In this document: positions 2,428-47,547 of the stretch, in pieces
How the letters are laid out: the number at the start of each line of letters is the position of its first letter
How positions within the stretch are numbered: the first letter of the stretch is position 1
Position numbers and translations under genes: made by a program
Assembly (NCBI GenBank): GCA_963826065.1
Contig: CAWGVP010000006.1
Coordinates: 213,961-277,960, forward strand
Origin: an uncultured Gemmatimonadales bacterium
Lineage (GTDB): Bacteria; Gemmatimonadota; Gemmatimonadetes; Gemmatimonadales; GWC2-71-9
Length of the DNA: 64,000 bases
Reading direction: 5' to 3'
The notes under the pieces: model-generated
Database searches by the model: none
Told to the model about the DNA's origin: nothing
Seen by the model: only the letters and a program-made list of their open reading frames with translations

Positions 2428-2467
2428 CATCGTGACATCGTGGCATCGTGGCATCGTGGCATCCTGA
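2428..2467 (+). repeat. 8-bp tandem repeat (CATCGTGG-like, 5 units) running into the REP arm
   Basis: catcgtga-catcgtgg-catcgtgg-catcgtgg-catcctga read directly. Confidence 0.9.
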
Positions 2468-2524
2468 GTGAAGCGAAGGAGCCATGACCCAGGGCATGCC
2501 TCCTTCGCCTCGCTCAGGATGACA
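2457..2524. repeat. REP-like inverted doublet (locus A)
   Basis: Left arm TGGCATCCTGAGTGAAGCGAAGGAG 2457-2481; right arm CTCCTTCGCCTCGCTCAGGATGACA 2500-2524; between convergent genes. Confidence 0.92.
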
Positions 2525-29194: not shown

Positions 29195-31039
29195 GTGCTC
29201 CGCCTGGCGATCGCCCAGCTTCGGCCCCACAAGGGCGCCTATGACGAGAACCTCTGCCGGCTGGGGGCCTTCTTCCGGGAGGCCGCCGGCTGGGCCGAGC
29301 CGCCTGACCTGGTGGTGGCACCGGAAGCGGCACTCACCGGCTACTTCCTCGAGGGCGGAGTCCGCGACTTGGCCGTCTCCGCCGATCAGCTGCTCGACGA
29401 CCTCTCCGCTCAGCACCGGGATGCCCAGGCACCGCCGCTCGACGTCGCCCTGGGCTTCTACGAGGTCCATCAGAACCGGCTCTACAATTCTGCCCTCTAT
29501 GCCCGTCTCGGCGGCCCCGAGGCGGGCATCCGCCACGTGCACCGGAAGGTGTTTCTCCCGACCTACGGGGTGTTCGACGAGGAGCGCTTCGTGGAGGCAG
29601 GCCGGAGCGTGCAGGCGTTCGACACCGCCTGGGGCCGGGCGGCGATTCTGATCTGCGAGGATGCCTGGCATTCCTTCACGCCGATGCTCGCGGCCCTCGA
29701 CGGCGCCCAGCTCATCATCGTGCCGAGCGCGAGCCCGGCGCGCGGCCCCGTTCCGGGCGACGATTCCGGCGCGGGCCGGCCGGCGAGCCTCGGCCGCTGG
29801 AGCCGGATCATCCAGGACATCGCGGGCGAGCACGGCGTCTACGTCGCGCTGGCGCAGTTGGTGGGTTTCGAGGGGGGCAAGGCGTTCCCGGGGGGCTCGA
29901 TCGTGGCGACGCCGCGGGGCGAGCTGATGGCGCAGGGCCCCATCTTTCAGGAAGCCCTGATCCCGGCGACGCTCGACTTCGAGGAGATCACCCGGGCGCG
30001 GACCGACTTGCCGCTGCTGGCGGACCTGGAGATGCGGCTGCCGCATCTGCTGGGCTCGCTGCATGCGGCGAGGCGGTCGGGGTCGGGGAAGGGATATGGT
30101 GGCAGCGGGGCAGCGGAGGGCGGAACCGGGGTTGTTGCGCCGGGTGTGGGTAATGCTGGTGGCAGGGCCGGTAGGAAGGTGAAGAAGCGTGTCACCCTGA
30201 GCTCAGCGAAGGGGCCGACGTCCGACCCGCTCGCCATCGACCCGGAGCTGACTTCCCACTGGCTGGTGGAATTCCTCCGCGACGAGGTTCAGCGCCGCCG
30301 GGGTTTCGAGAAGGTCGTCATCGGGCTCTCCGGCGGCGTGGACAGCTCGCTGGTTGCGTACCTCGCAGCGGGGGCCCTCGGCGCGGAGAACGTCATCGGC
30401 GTCAGGATGCCGTATCGGACCTCGAGCCCGGAGAGTCTGGAACACGCCCAGCTGGTGATCGACGCGCTCGGCATCCAGGCCAGGACGGTGGACATCAGCG
30501 CGGCGGTTGACGGGCTGGCCGCCGCGATCGGCGGCGTGAGCGAGCCGGGACGCCTGGGCAACATCATGGCCCGGGCACGCATGATCACGCTGTTCGACAT
30601 CTCGGCCGCCGAGCGGGCGCTGCCGGTCGGCACCGGCAACAAGACCGAGCGGCTGCTCGGCTACTTCACCTGGCACGCGGACGACTCGCCGCCGGTGAAC
30701 CCGATCGGCGACCTCTTCAAGACCCAGGTCTGGACCCTCGCCCGGCACGTGAAGGTGCCCGACGTGATCGTCTCCAAGCCGGCCAGCGCGGATCTCATCG
30801 AGGGACAGACCGACGAGGGCGACTTCGGCATCTCCTACCCCCGGGCCGACGCGATCCTGCACTGGATCCTGCTCGGCTATCGCAACGAGGAGATCGTCCC
30901 GCTCGGCTTCACGGAGAATGAGCTGGCGCTGGTCCGCCGCCGGCTGGATTCCACCCACTGGAAACGCCGGCTTCCCACCGTCGCCATGCTCAGCGCGACG
31001 GCGATCGGGGAGTACTACCTGAGACCGGTCGATTATTGA
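29195..31039 (+). CDS. nadE: Glutamine-dependent NAD+ synthetase (CN-hydrolase + NAD synthase domains)
   Basis: PE, HRKVFLPTY, ICEDAW; SGGVDS, NIMARARM, GTGNKTE, KPASADL; GTG start 29195. Confidence 0.95.
   Translation: MLRLAIAQLRPHKGAYDENLCRLGAFFREAAGWAEPPDLVVAPEAALTGYFLEGGVRDLAVSADQLLDDLSAQHRDAQAPPLDVALGFYEVHQNRLYNSALYARLGGPEAGIRHVHRKVFLPTYGVFDEERFVEAGRSVQAFDTAWGRAAILICEDAWHSFTPMLAALDGAQLIIVPSASPARGPVPGDDSGAGRPASLGRWSRIIQDIAGEHGVYVALAQLVGFEGGKAFPGGSIVATPRGELMAQGPIFQEALIPATLDFEEITRARTDLPLLADLEMRLPHLLGSLHAARRSGSGKGYGGSGAAEGGTGVVAPGVGNAGGRAGRKVKKRVTLSSAKGPTSDPLAIDPELTSHWLVEFLRDEVQRRRGFEKVVIGLSGGVDSSLVAYLAAGALGAENVIGVRMPYRTSSPESLEHAQLVIDALGIQARTVDISAAVDGLAAAIGGVSEPGRLGNIMARARMITLFDISAAERALPVGTGNKTERLLGYFTWHADDSPPVNPIGDLFKTQVWTLARHVKVPDVIVSKPASADLIEGQTDEGDFGISYPRADAILHWILLGYRNEEIVPLGFTENELALVRRRLDSTHWKRRLPTVAMLSATAIGEYYLRPVDY
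30190..30216 (+). repeat. Single REP-like arm inside the nadE interdomain linker (locus B)
   Basis: TGTCACCCTGAGCTCAGCGAAGGGGCC differs from the arm at 36864 only in the loop; translated as VTLSSAKGP. Confidence 0.85.
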
Positions 31040-35907: not shown

Positions 35908-36325
35908 CTTGAAGCTCTTCACGCTCGAGGAGGCGGAGCGCACGCTGCCGCTGGTGCGGCGGGTGGTGCAGGATCTCACCGCCGAGTATCCGGTGTGGCG
36001 GGCCGCGGTCGCGCGCTTCGAGCTTCTGACCGGGGGCGCGCGCGCCGACTGGGGCGAGACCGGTGAGCTGCTCGCCGCGCGGGAAGACGTCACCCTCCAC
36101 GCCGACCGGATCAACCGCTACCTCCAGGAGCTCGAGGGCGTGGGCTGCGTGTTCAAGGGGTTCGACGCCGGCCTGGTGGATTTCTATTCACTGCGGGAGG
36201 ATCGGCCGATCTTCCTCTGCTGGAAGCTGGGTGAGGAGCGCATCAGCCACTGGCACGAGATCGACGCGGGATTCTCCGGACGGCAGCCGATCGACGGCGC
36301 GATCCTCTCCGCGATGTCGTCGTGA
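35900..36325 (+). CDS. DUF2203 family protein
   Basis: FTLEEA...LP, GLVDF, LCWKLGE..I.HWH...GF.GRQPI. Confidence 0.88.
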   Translation: MPDLKLFTLEEAERTLPLVRRVVQDLTAEYPVWRAAVARFELLTGGARADWGETGELLAAREDVTLHADRINRYLQELEGVGCVFKGFDAGLVDFYSLREDRPIFLCWKLGEERISHWHEIDAGFSGRQPIDGAILSAMSS

Positions 36326-36780
36326 CCCGCCTCTGGGTCCTGCTGCACATCGTCGGCTTCACGCTATGGATCGGCGGCGGGCTCGCCTCGATGGTGGCGG
36401 GCATCGTGTCCAGGCGCGAGGAGCGGGGCGGGCTCGGAGCGGTGGTGCGGTCGCAGGCGGCTGTGCAGCGGCTGCTGGTGGCCCCCGGGGCGCTGCTCGC
36501 GGTGCTGTCGGGCCTGATGCTGACCTTCGCGCGGACGGGTGGCTCGGGCGGTCAGATCGGGTTCAGCTTCTGGCTGGTTCTGATGCAGGGCGCGGGGCTT
36601 CTCGGGGCCCTGGTCGTGCTGCTCGTCGGGCTGCCGACGGCGTCCAAGCTCGCGCGGATCGATCCGGCCGGGCAGCACGCGGCGTACTTCGACGAGCTTC
36701 GGCAGCGACAGCGGGTCACGTCGTCCATCGCGGGGGTGCTGGCGCTCGCGGCGCTGGTCGGGGGGGCGATGCTGGCGTAG
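36322..36780 (+). CDS. Four-TM membrane protein (DUF2269-like)
   Basis: LHIVG..LWIGG, four hydrophobic segments, GTGA coupling. Confidence 0.75.
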   Translation: MTRLWVLLHIVGFTLWIGGGLASMVAGIVSRREERGGLGAVVRSQAAVQRLLVAPGALLAVLSGLMLTFARTGGSGGQIGFSFWLVLMQGAGLLGALVVLLVGLPTASKLARIDPAGQHAAYFDELRQRQRVTSSIAGVLALAALVGGAMLA

Positions 36781-36797
36781 GGGGTGGGGTGGTGGGG

Positions 36798-36896
36798 GGC
36801 ATTGGCCCCTTCGCTTCGCTCAGGGTGACACGGGATGCCAGGGGAGTCGTGACAGCATGGACGTGTCACCCTGAGCGAAGCGAAGGGGCCAATGCC
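36798..36896. repeat. Perfect 35-bp inverted repeat of two REP-like arms (locus C, tags facing inward)
   Basis: GGCATTGGCCCCTTCGCTTCGCTCAGGGTGACACG 36798-36832 is the exact reverse complement of 36862-36896. Confidence 0.95.
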
Positions 36897-37168
36897 AGGT
36901 CCAGCCACCTCGGATTCTGACTCTCGATCAGCTCGATCTTCCGCATCCGTCTCCAGCCTTTGAGCTGTTTCTCCCGCCGGATCGCGTCCAGGACGTCCCC
37001 CGTCCGCTCAACGAACACCAGGCGGAAGATCTCGTGCCGGTACGCATGGTCATCCGGGGCGATGCCGGCACGATGCTCGGCGACCCGCCTGGCGAGGTCG
37101 TTGGTGACACCGACGTAGAGCTCGCGGGACCGACTGGCCAGGATGTAGACGAAGTAGTCCCGGGGCAT
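36866..37168 (-). CDS. Stand-alone GIY-YIG nuclease (YhbQ/UPF0213-like)
   Basis: YFVYILAS...LYVGVTNDLARRVAEH...AIRREKQLKGWRR..KI.LIE..NP.W.DL. Confidence 0.93.
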   Translation of the reverse strand: MPRDYFVYILASRSRELYVGVTNDLARRVAEHRAGIAPDDHAYRHEIFRLVFVERTGDVLDAIRREKQLKGWRRMRKIELIESQNPRWLDLALAPSLRSG

Positions 37169-37214
37169 TCGGGACCATTGCGGGGATCCGTCAAAGGAGA
37201 CTCAAGCGGGGTTA

Positions 37215-37242
37215 TGGCCCCTTCGCTGCGCTCAGGGTGACA
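37215..37242 (-). repeat. REP-like arm upstream of the GIY-YIG gene (locus C, third arm)
   Basis: Minus strand reads TGTCACCCTGAGCGCAGCGAAGGGGCCA. Confidence 0.92.
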
Positions 37243-37927
37243 ATGTCCCGGCCATGCCGCGGGTCCGGCGCCCCATCCGGCACGCCGCCCGGACCGGGCA
37301 CTCCCCGCACCGCGCTACTCTCGCCGTGCACACCAGCGCGCCGAGTTCCATGATGGCCTGATTGAACTCCCAGGCGCGCTTCCCCTGTCGCGGCACGATC
37401 AGCCCCGCGGTTTCCCAGATCCGCCGCGGCGCGACGGGCCGGGACGGGTGGTGGAACGCCCGGCGAATCACCCGAGCGACGTTGGTGTCCACCGCCGGCG
37501 TGGCCCGCTCGAAGGCGAAGCACGCCACCGCGCCCGCGGTATACCGGCCGATTCCCGGCAGCCGCGCCAGCACCGCGGGGTCGTCCGGCACGGTGCCGCC
37601 GTGTTCCCCCACGACGGTCTGCGCCAGCCGGTGCAGGTTCGCCGCCCGGCGATAATACCCGAGCCCCTCCCAGCTCTCCCTCACCATCGCCGGGGGCGCC
37701 GCCGCCAGCGCCTCGATGGACGGATAGCGCTCGAGAAACCGGTGATAATAGGCCTCGACCCGGGACACCTGGGTCTGCTGAAGCATGAATTCCGAGACCA
37801 CGATGTGGTACGGATCGCGGGTCCGGCGCCAGGGAAGGTCACGGCCGTGGCGGCGGAACCAGCGCAGCAGGCGCCGACGGAACGCCGACGTCTGGAGTGT
37901 GCGGCATGCCCTAGACTTACGCGGCAT
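37232..37927 (-). CDS. mutY: A/G-specific adenine glycosylase, short form (HhH-GPD + 4Fe-4S, no C-terminal NUDIX-like domain)
   Basis: RDLPWR, VSEFMLQQTQV, WEGLGYYRRA, LPGIGRYTA, VDTNV, CX6CX2CX5C. Confidence 0.88.
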   Translation of the reverse strand: MPRKSRACRTLQTSAFRRRLLRWFRRHGRDLPWRRTRDPYHIVVSEFMLQQTQVSRVEAYYHRFLERYPSIEALAAAPPAMVRESWEGLGYYRRAANLHRLAQTVVGEHGGTVPDDPAVLARLPGIGRYTAGAVACFAFERATPAVDTNVARVIRRAFHHPSRPVAPRRIWETAGLIVPRQGKRAWEFNQAIMELGALVCTARVARCGECPVRAACRMGRRTRGMAGTLSP

Positions 37928-37983
37928 GGGGGGCGAAGATACGTCCGGTCGACCCCAGGCGCTATCGGACAACTGACACAAAC

Positions 37984-38769
37984 ATGGACGCCCAGACACT
38001 CGATCTCCGCCGCTTCGTCGGCCGCTGGACGCTCAACGCCATGTCGCACGTCGGCCGGGTGTCCCTCATGGTGTGGGACGCCATCCGGAGCTTGAGCGAG
38101 TGGCGGGTGTGGTTCCCCCGGACCATGACCGAGGCGTGGAACATCGGGGTCGGCAGCCTCTTCATCGTCCTGCTCATCTCCGGCTTCGCCGGCGCCGTCA
38201 CGGCGCTCCAGGCTCGCTACCAGTTCACCGGCACCATCCCCATCTACTATCTGGCCGGCGTGGTGGTCGAATCCATCGTGCTCGAGCTCGGCCCCGTGCT
38301 CACCGGGCTGGTGCTGGCGGGCCGCATCGGCGCGCGCTACGCGGCGGAGCTGGGCACGATGCGGGTCACCGAGCAGATCGACGCCCTGGAGAGCCTGGGG
38401 CGCTCGCCGGGATCGCATCTCATCGTGCCCCGGGTGCTGGCCGGATTCATCATGATCCCGGTCCTCGTCATCCTGGCCGACGTGATGGGGATCTTCGCGG
38501 GCTGGTTCTCGATGACGATGGTGCTCCCGATCACCAACGAGGATTTCACCTACGGCGCCCGCTCCTTCTGGCGCCCCTTCGACGCCACCTACTCGGTCAT
38601 CAAGGCCTTCTTCTTCGCCGGCTCGATCACCATCATCGCCTGCTACATGGGCTTCAACACCCAGCAGGGCGCCGAAGGTGTCGGCCGGGCGACCACGGGG
38701 GCGGTGGTGAGCAGCTCGGTGCTGATCCTGCTGCTCGACGTGCTCCTCGCCAACCTGCTGCTTGCCTGA
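37984..38769 (+). CDS. mlaE: MlaE family ABC permease
   Basis: ELGPVL...AGRIGA..AAELGTMRVTEQIDALE, GAEGVGRATT. Confidence 0.93.
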   Translation: MDAQTLDLRRFVGRWTLNAMSHVGRVSLMVWDAIRSLSEWRVWFPRTMTEAWNIGVGSLFIVLLISGFAGAVTALQARYQFTGTIPIYYLAGVVVESIVLELGPVLTGLVLAGRIGARYAAELGTMRVTEQIDALESLGRSPGSHLIVPRVLAGFIMIPVLVILADVMGIFAGWFSMTMVLPITNEDFTYGARSFWRPFDATYSVIKAFFFAGSITIIACYMGFNTQQGAEGVGRATTGAVVSSSVLILLLDVLLANLLLA

Positions 38770-41398: not shown

Positions 41399-41465
41399 TG
41401 TCATCCTGAGCGCAGCGAAGGAGGCCATGCAGGGCTTCGGCTCCTTCGCTTCGCTCAGGATGACA
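41399..41465. repeat. REP-like inverted doublet (locus D)
   Basis: TGTCATCCTGAGCGCAGCGAAGGAG 41399-41423 and CTCCTTCGCTTCGCTCAGGATGACA 41441-41465. Confidence 0.95.
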
Positions 41466-47450: not shown

Positions 47451-47547
47451 AGCTCGTTGTCGTGTATCACCCTGAACGAAGTGAAGGGGGCCATCTCCGA
47501 GATGGCCCCCTTCGCTTCGCTCAGGGTGATACACGACAACGAGCTTC
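47449..47547. repeat. 99-bp near-perfect palindrome containing two REP-like arms (locus E)
   Basis: 49-bp arms around centre 47498 with two mismatches; between convergent genes. Confidence 0.95.

What the first reader, a model, noticed from the sequence alone, without database searches (positions are those of the whole stretch)
36798..37242. GIY-YIG nuclease gene framed by the REP arms: candidate mobiliser of the repeat family
Seen: a 100-aa stand-alone GIY-YIG gene lies between inverted arms with tags pointing outward (36864+ and 37242-), the same geometry as the empty doublets at 2457-2524, 41399-41465 and 47465-47531. A third arm forms a perfect 35-bp inverted repeat, making this the densest repeat locus, and the gene's last codons are repeat-encoded. 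Established: GTAG-type REPs flank and are processed by RAYT HUH transposases; to my knowledge no dedicated enzyme is established for (C/T)GTC-tagged REPs; GIY-YIG domains act as nicking or structure-specific nucleases and in mobile elements. Inference: an autonomous/non-autonomous pair in which a small GIY-YIG nuclease recognises the tagged hairpin and promotes spread or maintenance of the repeats.
Basis: partly seen in the sequence, partly recalled or inferred. Interest (0 to 1): 0.85.

Follow-up and report, generated by a model that had tools for sequence, protein, structure and literature searches.

The report
Ssn-type nuclease gene framed by repeats
A small DNA-cutting enzyme gene sits between two copies of a hairpin repeat that litters this genome, a pairing published in 2025 as the Ssn nuclease family, so this is a new example with an unusual repeat shape, not a new kind of system.

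Summary
A 100-aa GIY-YIG ORF (36866-37168, minus strand) lies between inverted arms with tags pointing outward. A third arm forms a perfect 35-nt inverted repeat, and the gene's last codons and stop are repeat-encoded.

The genome holds about 440 arms: 170 tag-outward doublets against 3 tag-inward pairs. A second paralog is framed by a different arm subfamily.

The pairing is general. Inverted repeats frame 46 of 80 homolog loci from many phyla, against 0.2% of control positions. In named hosts of CGTC-tagged REPs the homolog is framed by canonical CGTC REPs.

It is already in print. Chenal et al. 2025 (PMC11893778) describe the Ssn family: single-domain GIY-YIG nucleases that bind such hairpins only as single-stranded DNA and cut just upstream. 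The window protein is 44% identical (E 4e-20) to the Neisseria homolog.

New here:
- The arm architecture escapes the published search motif (0 of 368 arms).
- Each paralog has its own arm subfamily.
- One orthologous site occurs as gene plus arms, empty doublet, or empty.
- No target-site duplication was found.
- The gene is under purifying selection even where repeats are nearly gone.

Mobilisation by the nuclease remains unproven.

The parts
36866..37168 (-). Ssn-like single-domain GIY-YIG nuclease ORF, 100 aa
   Evidence: ORF list. Pfam PF01541, E 3.8e-12. 44% identity, E 4e-20 to the Neisseria gonorrhoeae SsnA-type homolog. Y8, Y18, R27, H32, E66 and N85 are conserved across 18 genus homologs.
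36862..36896 (+). Arm at the gene's 3' end, read TGTC-tag first on the + strand; it supplies the gene's last codons and stop
37208..37242 (-). Arm upstream of the gene, read TGTC-tag first on the - strand; inverted partner of the 3' arm (28 nt, 96%)
   Evidence: It also supplies the last codons and stop of the mutY-like ORF.
36796..36832 (-). Third arm; with 36862-36896 it forms a perfect 35-nt tag-inward inverted repeat between the convergent DUF2269 and nuclease genes
   Evidence: Folds at -53.6 kcal/mol, z -14.8. The same arrangement, but imperfect, is present in relative G014 (L001).
37169..37207 (-). Leader between the 5' arm and the ATG, with two TTGA(C/G)-like motifs conserved in the orthologous loci
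   Evidence: Read by eye in the oriented sequences. Function not tested.
41399..41465 (.). Gene-less tag-outward doublet of the same repeat family
   Evidence: No doublet at the orthologous site in G004 or G014.
47465..47531 (.). Gene-less tag-outward doublet
   Evidence: An orthologous but partly decayed doublet is present in G004; none in G014.
2457..2524 (.). Gene-less tag-outward doublet
   Evidence: C6 216418- and 216463+.
30190..30216 (-). Single arm
37232..37999 (-). Flanking mutY-like HhH-GPD glycosylase gene (not part of the element)
   Evidence: Pfam PF00730, E 1.1e-21.
36322..36780 (+). Flanking DUF2269-like membrane protein gene (not part of the element)
   Evidence: Pfam PF10027, E 2.8e-5, below the cut-off. 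Syntenic in relatives.

Best explanation
This is a member of the Ssn family: small single-domain GIY-YIG nucleases that recognise an oriented hairpin repeat. Here the gene is framed by two inverted copies of its presumed recognition hairpin.

Shown for homologs, inferred for this protein: it binds one arm as single-stranded DNA. The arm has an unpaired (C/T)GTC tag, a short stem beginning A-T or A-C, a conserved GA-GC[GNA]GC-GA core, and a tail. The protein cuts a few nucleotides 5' of the tag, on that strand only.

The roughly 440 arms in the genome are therefore about 440 strand-specific cutting sites that become available whenever DNA is single-stranded (uptake, replication, repair).

Gene and repeats form a co-evolving pair. 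Each of the two paralogs carries its own arm subfamily, the pair is mostly inherited vertically at fixed sites, and repeat numbers are high mainly where a gene is present. Whether the enzyme also creates or moves the repeats is open.
For: Identity:
- PF01541 is the only Pfam domain.
- 44% identity, E 4e-20 to the Neisseria homolog.
- Catalytic Tyr, Tyr and Glu are conserved.
- The nearest solved structures are the uncharacterised UPF0213 proteins 1ZG2 and 1YWL.

Framing:
-.
- The second paralog, C5:514921-515250, is framed by subfamily-C arms and also ends in the arm.
- Of 20 genus loci, 13 have arms on both sides, 4 on one side, 3 none.
- 46 of 80 loci from other phyla have a flanking inverted repeat scoring at least 14, against 0.22% of 2310 control positions.
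- Canonical CGTC REPs frame the homolog in S. meliloti, N. aromaticivorans, Rhizobium and Sphingobium; they lie on both sides in A. lipoferum and N. gonorrhoeae.

Hairpin: 84.4% of cells paired against 65.8% in shuffles (0 of 500 reach it); 201 two-sided changes against 62; slid controls 16-49%.

Gene and repeat number:
- Genomes with at least 10 motif hits carry the gene in 25 of 33 cases; the rest in 10 of 168.
- Family f1 medians are 31 against 1.
- Within-genus permutation p is about 5e-5.
- G021 has only group-2 genes and 0 A/B arms against 73 total.

No Y1/RAYT transposase was found in the genome.

Published biochemistry and published association statistics: PMC11893778 (abstract, Results parts 1-3, Discussion and Methods section 17 read).
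Against: - No biochemistry on this protein.
- The CDD cd10448 assignment could not be run.
- None of 368 arms fits my transcription of the published SRM search sequence, so specificity for this arm type is extrapolated.
- A single arm is not unusually stable under nearest-neighbour DNA parameters (-3.1 kcal/mol, z 0.5).
- Repeat-rich genomes without a detected gene exist: G012 (334-339 arms, 92% complete, 520 contigs), G005 (97-122 arms) and 8 of 33 in the phylum sample.
- Gene-bearing genomes with almost no arms exist: G013, G010, G114, G142.
- Each gene copy itself adds about 2 arms to the counts.
- Related genomes are not independent.
Confidence: 0.8

Rival explanations
1. Active autonomous/non-autonomous pair. 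The arm-gene-arm unit is a transposon whose nuclease excises or copies the short doublets and so spreads them.
For: - The geometry matches IS/MITE and RAYT/REPIN systems.
- Gene and arm number are associated within genera.
- Each paralog has its own arm subfamily.
- The orthologous site occurs in three states: gene plus arms in 9 genomes, doublet only in G012, no trace in 6 genomes. Among these, G004 is nested among gene-bearing relatives.
- Units sit at other sites in relatives, and the SDR site is filled in 5 genomes but empty in G000.
- Doublets differ between close relatives.
- No other candidate transposase of the RAYT type is present.
- The idea is raised in the Discussion of PMC11893778.
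Against: - GIY-YIG enzymes hydrolyse DNA and form no covalent intermediate (recalled), so joining would need host functions.
- Published Ssn cuts only one strand orientation. Within a doublet the two cuttable arms therefore lie on opposite strands, so a single strand cannot be excised by two cuts (inference).
- 169 of 170 doublets differ in sequence, so there is no sign of a recent burst.
- The gene persists under purifying selection without repeats.
- Repeat-rich genomes without the gene exist.
- No mobility event was observed.
Confidence: 0.3
2. Homing-type selfish gene. The doublets came first, and the nuclease gene inserted into the middle of one, as a free-standing homing endonuclease gene would.
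For: The gene lies exactly between the arms of what elsewhere is a 67-nt or 110-nt doublet. At the same site G012 has a doublet only. Some genomes of other phyla hold several copies, 7 in G041.
Against: Only one gene per arm subfamily stands among about 170 doublets in this genome, so there is no spread into empty doublets. The loci are syntenic across the genus. Published homologs do not cut double-stranded DNA (PMC11893778).
Confidence: 0.1
3. Passenger or chance. The repeats merely accumulate in intergenic DNA, and the nuclease has an unrelated repair role.
For: Small GIY-YIG genes have been discussed as UvrC/Cho-like repair genes in Caulobacter (PMC1839093, passages read). The gene is kept under selection where repeats are gone.
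Against: Framing recurs across phyla at 46 of 80 loci against 0.2% of controls. The arm stem covaries. Published binding is specific.
Confidence: 0.03

Closest known systems
Ssn nuclease family with Ssn-related motifs (SsnA/NTS of Neisseria meningitidis; Chenal et al. 2025, PMC11893778)
   Same: - Single-domain GIY-YIG protein of about 95-110 aa, 44% identical to the Neisseria homolog.
- Gene framed on both sides by oriented hairpin repeats carrying a (C/T)GTC tag.
- Hundreds of copies in the genome.
- Gene presence goes with repeat number.
   Different: - The arm architecture differs: 4-5 Watson-Crick pairs plus a conserved GA-GC[GNA]GC-GA core, where the published motif has an 8-9 bp stem and a 4-5 nt loop.
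- 0 of 368 arms fit the published search sequence. It hits 1 of 80 of the related loci, against 37 of 80 for the variant pattern.
- This genome has two paralogs, each with its own arm subfamily.
- Nearly all arms are organised as tag-outward doublets.
- Activity and any role in transformation are untested here. ComEC and DprA homologs are present, but both are common genes.
RAYT/REPIN systems (TnpA-REP, HUH Y1 transposases with GTAG-tagged REPs)
   Same: - A low-copy gene framed by its own repeats.
- Repeats mostly as inverted doublets.
- Largely vertical inheritance.
- No target-site duplication.
- Recognition of a tagged hairpin in single-stranded DNA.
   Different: Unrelated enzyme: GIY-YIG hydrolase, not an HUH tyrosine nuclease. 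PF01797 is absent from the genome. The tag is (C/T)GTC, not GTAG.
CGTC-tagged REPs (Di Nocera et al. 2013, PMC3733652)
   Same: Unpaired (C/T)GTC tag, stem beginning A-T, CCA tail in arm types A and B, head-to-head dimers predominant. That paper reported no associated transposase. The GIY-YIG gene is framed by such REPs in S. meliloti, A. lipoferum and Sphingomonadaceae.
   Different: The stem and loop dimensions of the window's arms fall outside the four families described there.
UPF0213/YhbQ-type and Slx1 GIY-YIG proteins (PDB 1ZG2, 1YWL, 6SEH)
   Same: GIY-YIG fold by sequence: profile E 2.7e-12 to 1ZG2.
   Different: The genome's own YhbQ-like copy (C4:384784-385752) is only 35% identical, is fused to another domain and has no arms.
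GIY-YIG homing endonucleases (I-TevI, Seg proteins; recalled)
   Same: Small selfish-looking nuclease gene between repeats.
   Different: No separate DNA-binding domain. Homologs do not cut double-stranded DNA. There is no multi-copy spread in this genome.

Membership tests
Ssn family (cd10448-like GIY-YIG ssDNA nucleases) | Single-domain GIY-YIG protein of roughly 90-110 aa | tested here: met
   100 aa; PF01541 covers residues 5-76 and is the only Pfam hit.
Ssn family (cd10448-like GIY-YIG ssDNA nucleases) | Homology to Neisseria SsnA at E < 1e-10 (the paper's criterion) | tested here: met
   44% identity over 86 aa, pairwise E 4e-20, to the N. gonorrhoeae homolog in L124. That it is the ssnA ortholog is inferred from its NTS-like flanks.
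Ssn family (cd10448-like GIY-YIG ssDNA nucleases) | Assignment to CDD cd10448 (GIY-YIG_unchar_3) | not testable with these tools
   No CDD library is available. NCBIfam gave no hit.
Ssn family (cd10448-like GIY-YIG ssDNA nucleases) | Catalytic Tyr, Tyr and Glu (Y6, Y17, E64 in the N. meningitidis protein) | tested here: met
   Y8, Y18 and E66 align with them. Y8 is invariant and E66 nearly so in 18 genus homologs.
Ssn family (cd10448-like GIY-YIG ssDNA nucleases) | Gene flanked 5' and 3' by oriented hairpin repeats that are abundant in the genome | tested here: met
Ssn family (cd10448-like GIY-YIG ssDNA nucleases) | Repeats fit the published degenerate SRM search sequence | tested here: not met
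   0 of 368 arms fit. There are 47 genome matches against 17 on the reversed genome, none of them an arm (my own transcription as a regular expression). This is a search aid, not the family's definition.
Ssn family (cd10448-like GIY-YIG ssDNA nucleases) | Binds and cuts only single-stranded DNA, one orientation, upstream of the motif | not testable with these tools
   Needs purified protein.
RAYT/REPIN | HUH Y1 transposase (PF01797) | tested here: not met
   The protein is GIY-YIG. PF01797 has no match in the genome, which is 93% complete.
RAYT/REPIN | Low-copy gene framed by REPs; REPs mostly as inverted doublets | tested here: met
CGTC-tagged REP superfamily | Unpaired (C/T)GTC tag at one end | tested here: met
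   At the left ends of 170 doublets: G 166, T 165, C 165, preceded by T 122 or C 33. Right ends are alike.
CGTC-tagged REP superfamily | Stem of 8-9 bp and loop of 4-5 nt | tested here: inconclusive
   5 covarying pairs plus 2 inner pairs around a 3-nt loop, separated by G-A/A-G positions. This gives nine positions per side only if the G-A pairs are counted.
CGTC-tagged REP superfamily | Head-to-head dimers predominate | tested here: met
   170 tag-outward pairs against 3 tag-inward pairs.
DDE-type IS/MITE | Target-site duplication at element ends | tested here: not met
   No excess of direct repeats of 2-8 nt at any of 64 offset combinations in 169 doublets. The best case was 17 observed against 12 expected.
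Homing endonuclease gene | Gene copies itself into empty target sites | tested here: not met
   Two framed genes against 170 gene-less doublets in this genome.

The most novel reading that the evidence does not exclude
The Ssn-type GIY-YIG nuclease is the enzyme that generates and moves (C/T)GTC-tagged REP doublets. It would do so by hydrolytic cutting of single-stranded hairpins followed by host-mediated joining, leaving no target-site duplication. That would be a transposition chemistry with no described precedent in bacteria, and it would answer the question Di Nocera 2013 left open. This genus would be a natural test bed because it offers:
- two paralogs, each with its own arm subfamily;
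- one site seen as gene plus arms, doublet only, or empty;
- sister genomes with about 340 arms and the gene (G000, G014) against 15 arms and no gene (G004).
Probability: 0.25. Interest if true: 0.8.

Novelty: new member of a known kind. Interest (0 to 1): 0.35.

Why it matters
The general finding, a small GIY-YIG nuclease paired with tagged hairpin repeats, is already published, so this window does not open a new field.

It does add three things:
- The family extends into soil lineages with a hairpin architecture that the published search motif misses. Published counts of Ssn-associated repeats may therefore be underestimates. Supplementary tables that might already list such motifs could not be seen.
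- Two enzyme/hairpin pairs coexist in one genome. This is a ready-made test of specificity, and useful if these enzymes are developed as single-stranded DNA tools.
- The genus-level contrasts give a comparative handle on whether the nuclease is responsible for repeat expansion, which remains undecided.

Tried and rejected
- The search for related loci with the 18-sequence alignment failed for lack of a conserved stretch. I used the C5 paralog alone instead. The 80 loci are therefore the best 80 of 494 relatives of that paralog, not of the window protein.
- Rfam: only two sub-threshold microRNA look-alikes on the long hairpin. NCBIfam and PADLOC: no hits.
- Public runs: 4 soil-metagenome runs were laid as contigs. 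The 'joints' skipping 317-333 nt between the arms have sides of only 21-28 nt and other letters in between, so they are other doublets, not excision products. They are no evidence either way.
- Strand bias of the 100 single arms against local GC skew: not significant (Fisher p 0.06).
- Filled and empty sites could not be aligned base by base because the intergenic DNA is too diverged. Insertion boundaries therefore rest on the statistical test only.
- The locus tree is a quick search on 5 flanking genes and is mosaic. G024's placement is driven by MlaE alone. I draw from it only the nesting of G004 and the G010/G012 pair.
- The interiors of the doublets show no recognisable remnant of the gene beyond about 33 nt of shared ends (by eye).
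- Literature: searches found nothing linking GIY-YIG to REPs. One search found the Ssn paper. This shows how term-dependent such searches are.
- BapE of Caulobacter as a small GIY-YIG nuclease is recalled only; the paper is not held.
- One script call gave no answer and was rerun in another form. One DNA query was one base too long and was resent shorter.
- Unpublished genomes: G003 is counted among the 24 genus genomes. G094 (gene present, 77 hits), G133, G190 and G213 (no strong gene; 1, 1 and 0 hits) are among the 201 genomes. No conclusion depends on them.
Full report
**What is in the window.** The minus-strand ORF 36866-37168 encodes 100 aa. Its only Pfam match is the GIY-YIG catalytic domain (E 3.8e-12). 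It lies between a DUF2269-like membrane gene (36322-36780, +) and a mutY-like HhH-GPD gene (37232-37999, -).

A 27-nt arm occurs six times in the window at up to 3 mismatches and never in 100 shuffles. Arms at 36864-36891 and 37215-37242 form a 28-nt, 96% inverted repeat around the gene. A third arm (36798-36832) forms a perfect 35-nt inverted repeat with the arm at the gene's 3' end.

The nuclease ORF ends inside an arm (...APSLRSG*). So does the mutY-like ORF (...LSP*).

**The repeat family in the genome.** The window is G000:C6:213961-277960 in a 4.37-Mb, 69% G+C assembly of 8 contigs. A pattern for the conserved core finds 440 arms, about 10 per 100 kb on every large contig.
- 340 arms sit in 170 doublets with tags pointing outward. 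Only 3 adjacent pairs have tags inward. 100 arms are single.
- Doublets come in a short form (about 67-70 nt, arm types A and B) and a long form (about 103-111 nt, type C).
- 169 of 170 doublets differ in sequence.
- The ends are sharply defined by G-(T/C)GTC-A.
- No direct repeat of 2-8 nt flanks the doublets beyond expectation, so there is no target-site duplication.
- A whole doublet folds as one long DNA hairpin (-32.3 kcal/mol, z -9.2). A single arm is not unusually stable in the energy model.

**The single-arm hairpin is nevertheless conserved.** I took 140 of the 143 distinct instances picked only by the 11-nt core in loci from other phyla. In these, the five flanking positions and two inner positions pair in 84.4% of cells, against 65.8% in shuffles (0 of 500 reach it) and 16-49% when the partner is slid. 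There are 201 two-sided changes against 62 expected. The inner pair is G-C in 106 rows, A-T in 27 and unpaired in 5.

The arm therefore reads as: tag, 5-bp stem, G-A/A-G, G-C and C-G pairs, then a GNA triloop. That d(GCGAAGC)-type mini-hairpins are unusually stable is recalled, not tested. Rows are related, and a few are chance core matches, so these numbers are not probabilities.

**A second framed paralog.** The genome has five GIY-YIG matches: two long UvrC-like frames, a YhbQ-like copy fused to another domain (no arms), the window gene, and C5:514921-515250. This last ORF (109 aa, 48% identical to the window protein) is framed by type-C arms in the same geometry and also ends ...PSLRSG* inside the arm.

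**Relatives in the genus.**
- Among 24 genomes of the genus the arm pattern occurs in all (1 to 392 hits). Among 16 genomes of two sister families it gave 1 hit in 1 genome.
- Strong matches to the nuclease occur in 17 of the 24 and in 0 of the 16.
- Of 20 fetched loci, 13 have arms on both sides of the gene (12 in the window's geometry, 1 between two complete doublets). Four have an arm on one side only; these are truncated genes or contig ends. Three have none.

The loci fall into two orthologous groups:
- Group 1 lies between the mutY-like and DUF2269 genes in 8 further genomes, with type-B arms.
- Group 2 lies downstream of a short-chain dehydrogenase gene in 5 genomes, with type-C arms.

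In G000 the dehydrogenase site is empty and the type-C paralog sits elsewhere. G021 has only group-2 genes and 0 A/B arms out of 73.

**One site, three states.** At the DUF2269/mutY-like junction:
- 9 genomes, the window's included, have gene plus arms.
- G012 has an intact doublet and no gene.
- 6 genomes have 7-32 nt (or overlapping gene ends) between the two genes with no trace of an arm.
- The others hold unrelated inserts.

On a quick tree of five flanking genes, the empty G004 falls in an unresolved group with gene-bearing G000 and G014 (SH-aLRT 91), inside a clade with gene-bearing G020 (100). The doublet-only G012 is sister to gene-bearing G010 (97). The tree is mosaic for G024. G004, a 3-contig assembly, has 15 arms and no framed gene, against about 340 arms in G000 and G014.

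Doublets also differ between these genomes. The one at 41399-41465 is absent from both relatives. The one at 47465-47531 is present but decaying in G004 and absent from G014.

**Evidence that cuts the other way.** In G010, G013 and G019 the group-1 gene is intact at the same site, but its arms are decayed and A/B arms genome-wide number 1, 1 and 8. The G010-G013 pair still shows dN/dS 0.11 at dS 1.2, the same as in repeat-rich pairs (0.11-0.14). The G019 copy has Gln at the catalytic Glu position.

G012 and G005 are repeat-rich, but only the unrelated YhbQ-like gene was found in them, even with the profile. Both are fragmented assemblies. So the gene can be kept without the repeats, and repeats can be numerous without a detected gene.

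**Wider sample.** In 201 genomes of the phylum:
- The core pattern reached at least 10 hits in 33 genomes, and 25 of these carry a strong match to the nuclease profile (E at most 1e-20).
- Of the other 168 genomes, 10 carry it.
- Within family f1 the medians are 31 and 1 hits.
- Permuting gene labels within genera gives p about 5e-5.
- Each gene copy contributes about two arms to its genome's count, and kin are not independent.

**Other phyla.** The C5 paralog found 494 relatives in one genome per species, and the best 80 loci come from many phyla. The best inverted repeat spanning the gene scores at least 14 in 46 of 80, against 0.22% of 2310 control positions in the same loci, and at least 20 in 24 of 80, against 0.09%. 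The arms share the tag, a covarying stem and the core. Five genomes reached through such loci hold 19-131 arm matches against 0 for the reversed pattern, and 1-7 gene copies.

**Named organisms.** A protein search of plasmid records (some are mislabelled chromosomes) found annotated 'GIY-YIG nuclease family protein' genes in organisms, or relatives of organisms, that Di Nocera et al. 2013 list as hosts of CGTC-tagged REPs. In S. meliloti, N. aromaticivorans, Rhizobium sp. and Sphingobium sp. the gene is framed by an inverted pair of canonical CGTC REPs. In A. lipoferum and N. gonorrhoeae such REPs lie on both sides, with the nearest tags facing the gene.

[quoted passage not shown] Early searches found nothing linking GIY-YIG to REPs. 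A later one found Chenal et al. 2025, Nat Commun 16:2388. I read its abstract, Results parts 1-3, Discussion and Methods section 17. It reports the following:
- The N. meningitidis protein SsnA (94 aa, single GIY-YIG domain, CDD cd10448) binds the CGTC-tagged hairpin NTS only as single-stranded DNA, in one orientation, and cuts a few nucleotides upstream. It does not act on double-stranded DNA or RNA.
- Y6A, Y17A and E64A abolish cutting.
- Three further homologs cut their own motifs.
- 42% of homologs are flanked on both sides by a motif.
- 137 of 169 genomes with more than 200 motifs carry the gene.
- Deleting the gene raises transformation with motif-bearing DNA about fivefold.
- The Discussion notes that the repeat-gene-repeat architecture resembles an insertion sequence, draws the RAYT/REP analogy, and hypothesises domestication and a role in repeat expansion.

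**Placing the window gene.** It is 44% identical (E 4e-20) to the N. gonorrhoeae homolog over 86 residues, with the catalytic Tyr, Tyr and Glu aligned. The genome's YhbQ-like copy is only 35% identical. The nearest solved structures are uncharacterised UPF0213 proteins. I file it as an Ssn-family member; the CDD assignment itself could not be run.

**What is new.**
- My transcription of the published degenerate search sequence matches 0 of 368 arms in this genome.
- It matches the flanks of 1 of the 80 related loci, although it hits 5 of the 6 named proteobacterial loci. A pattern for the variant architecture matches 37 of 80 loci (21 on both sides) against about 1% of 1151 controls.
- A whole branch of the family, outside the Proteobacteria, therefore seems to use a hairpin type that the published scan would miss.
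- Also new, as far as the read text goes: two paralogs with separate arm subfamilies in one genome, the three-state orthologous site, the absence of target-site duplication, and purifying selection in repeat-poor genomes.

**How it most likely works.**
- Shown for homologs and inferred here: the protein recognises one arm in single-stranded DNA and nicks 5' of the tag.
- Shown here: the gene is embedded between its own sites, and the pairing is ancient and clade-specific.
- Inferred: in a tag-outward doublet the cuttable orientation lies on opposite strands at the two ends. Any single strand exposed during uptake, replication or repair would be cut once per doublet, at the outer edge.
- ComEC and DprA homologs are present but are common genes, so a transformation role is only permitted.
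- Whether cutting also leads to copying of doublets is undecided. For it: the gene-repeat association within genera, the clade-specific arms, the site polymorphism and the lack of a RAYT. Against it: the purely hydrolytic chemistry, no recent identical copies, gene retention without repeats and repeat-rich genomes without the gene.

**Verdict.** I score it as a new member of a known kind, with a variant repeat architecture and some comparative leverage on the open mobilisation question.

Noticed in passing
window 37232-37243: The mutY-like ORF takes its last codons and stop (...LSP*) from the arm, so both genes next to this arm end in repeat sequence.
   Followed up: partly
window 37169-37207; same region in L001-L008, L010, L012, L016: Two TTGA(C/G)-like motifs about 10 nt apart lie between the 5' arm and the start codon in the orthologous loci. 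They may be a promoter or an operator.
   Followed up: no
window 36796-36896; L001 (G014): The tag-inward pair made by the third arm is perfect (35 of 35) in this genome. In G014 the same arrangement is imperfect. This suggests homogenisation between neighbouring arms, or selection for a long hairpin between the two convergent genes.
   Followed up: partly
G000:C4:384784-385752: A different GIY-YIG type (YhbQ-like, 35% identical) is fused to a C-terminal domain in a 356-aa open frame. It has no arms nearby. Orthologs of about 337 aa occur in many relatives.
   Followed up: partly
G041:C1:2001071-2001873; G045:C1:1627075-1627541: In other phyla the arm core also occurs in regular tandem arrays, with a period of 65 nt (13 copies) and 37 nt (13 copies). 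The 65-nt array might be a CRISPR-like array whose repeat resembles the arm.
   Followed up: no
L042, L043, L055, L076, L100 and others (alignment A4): A further arm architecture occurs in which the outer stem (for example ATTGC/GCAAT) sits three nucleotides further out on each side of the same core.
   Followed up: no
L010:2468-2764 (G019): The orthologous nuclease has Gln in place of the catalytic Glu (and of the next Lys). Its arms are decayed and the genome has few repeats, so the gene may be on its way out.
   Followed up: partly
L008 (G024): The locus is mosaic. The nuclease, DUF2203, DUF2269 and mutY-like genes resemble one subclade (76-90% identity), whereas the adjacent MlaE gene resembles another (71-73%). 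This hints at recombination across this site.
   Followed up: partly
L012 (G022), L015 (G023): Truncated copies of a group-1-like nuclease gene with degenerate arms sit at a further genomic site. They are pseudogenes of the unit.
   Followed up: no
L124:1486-1773 (N. gonorrhoeae): The homolog's aligned frame has no obvious in-frame ATG. The ORF finder reports only a 71-aa ORF starting from TTG.
   Followed up: no
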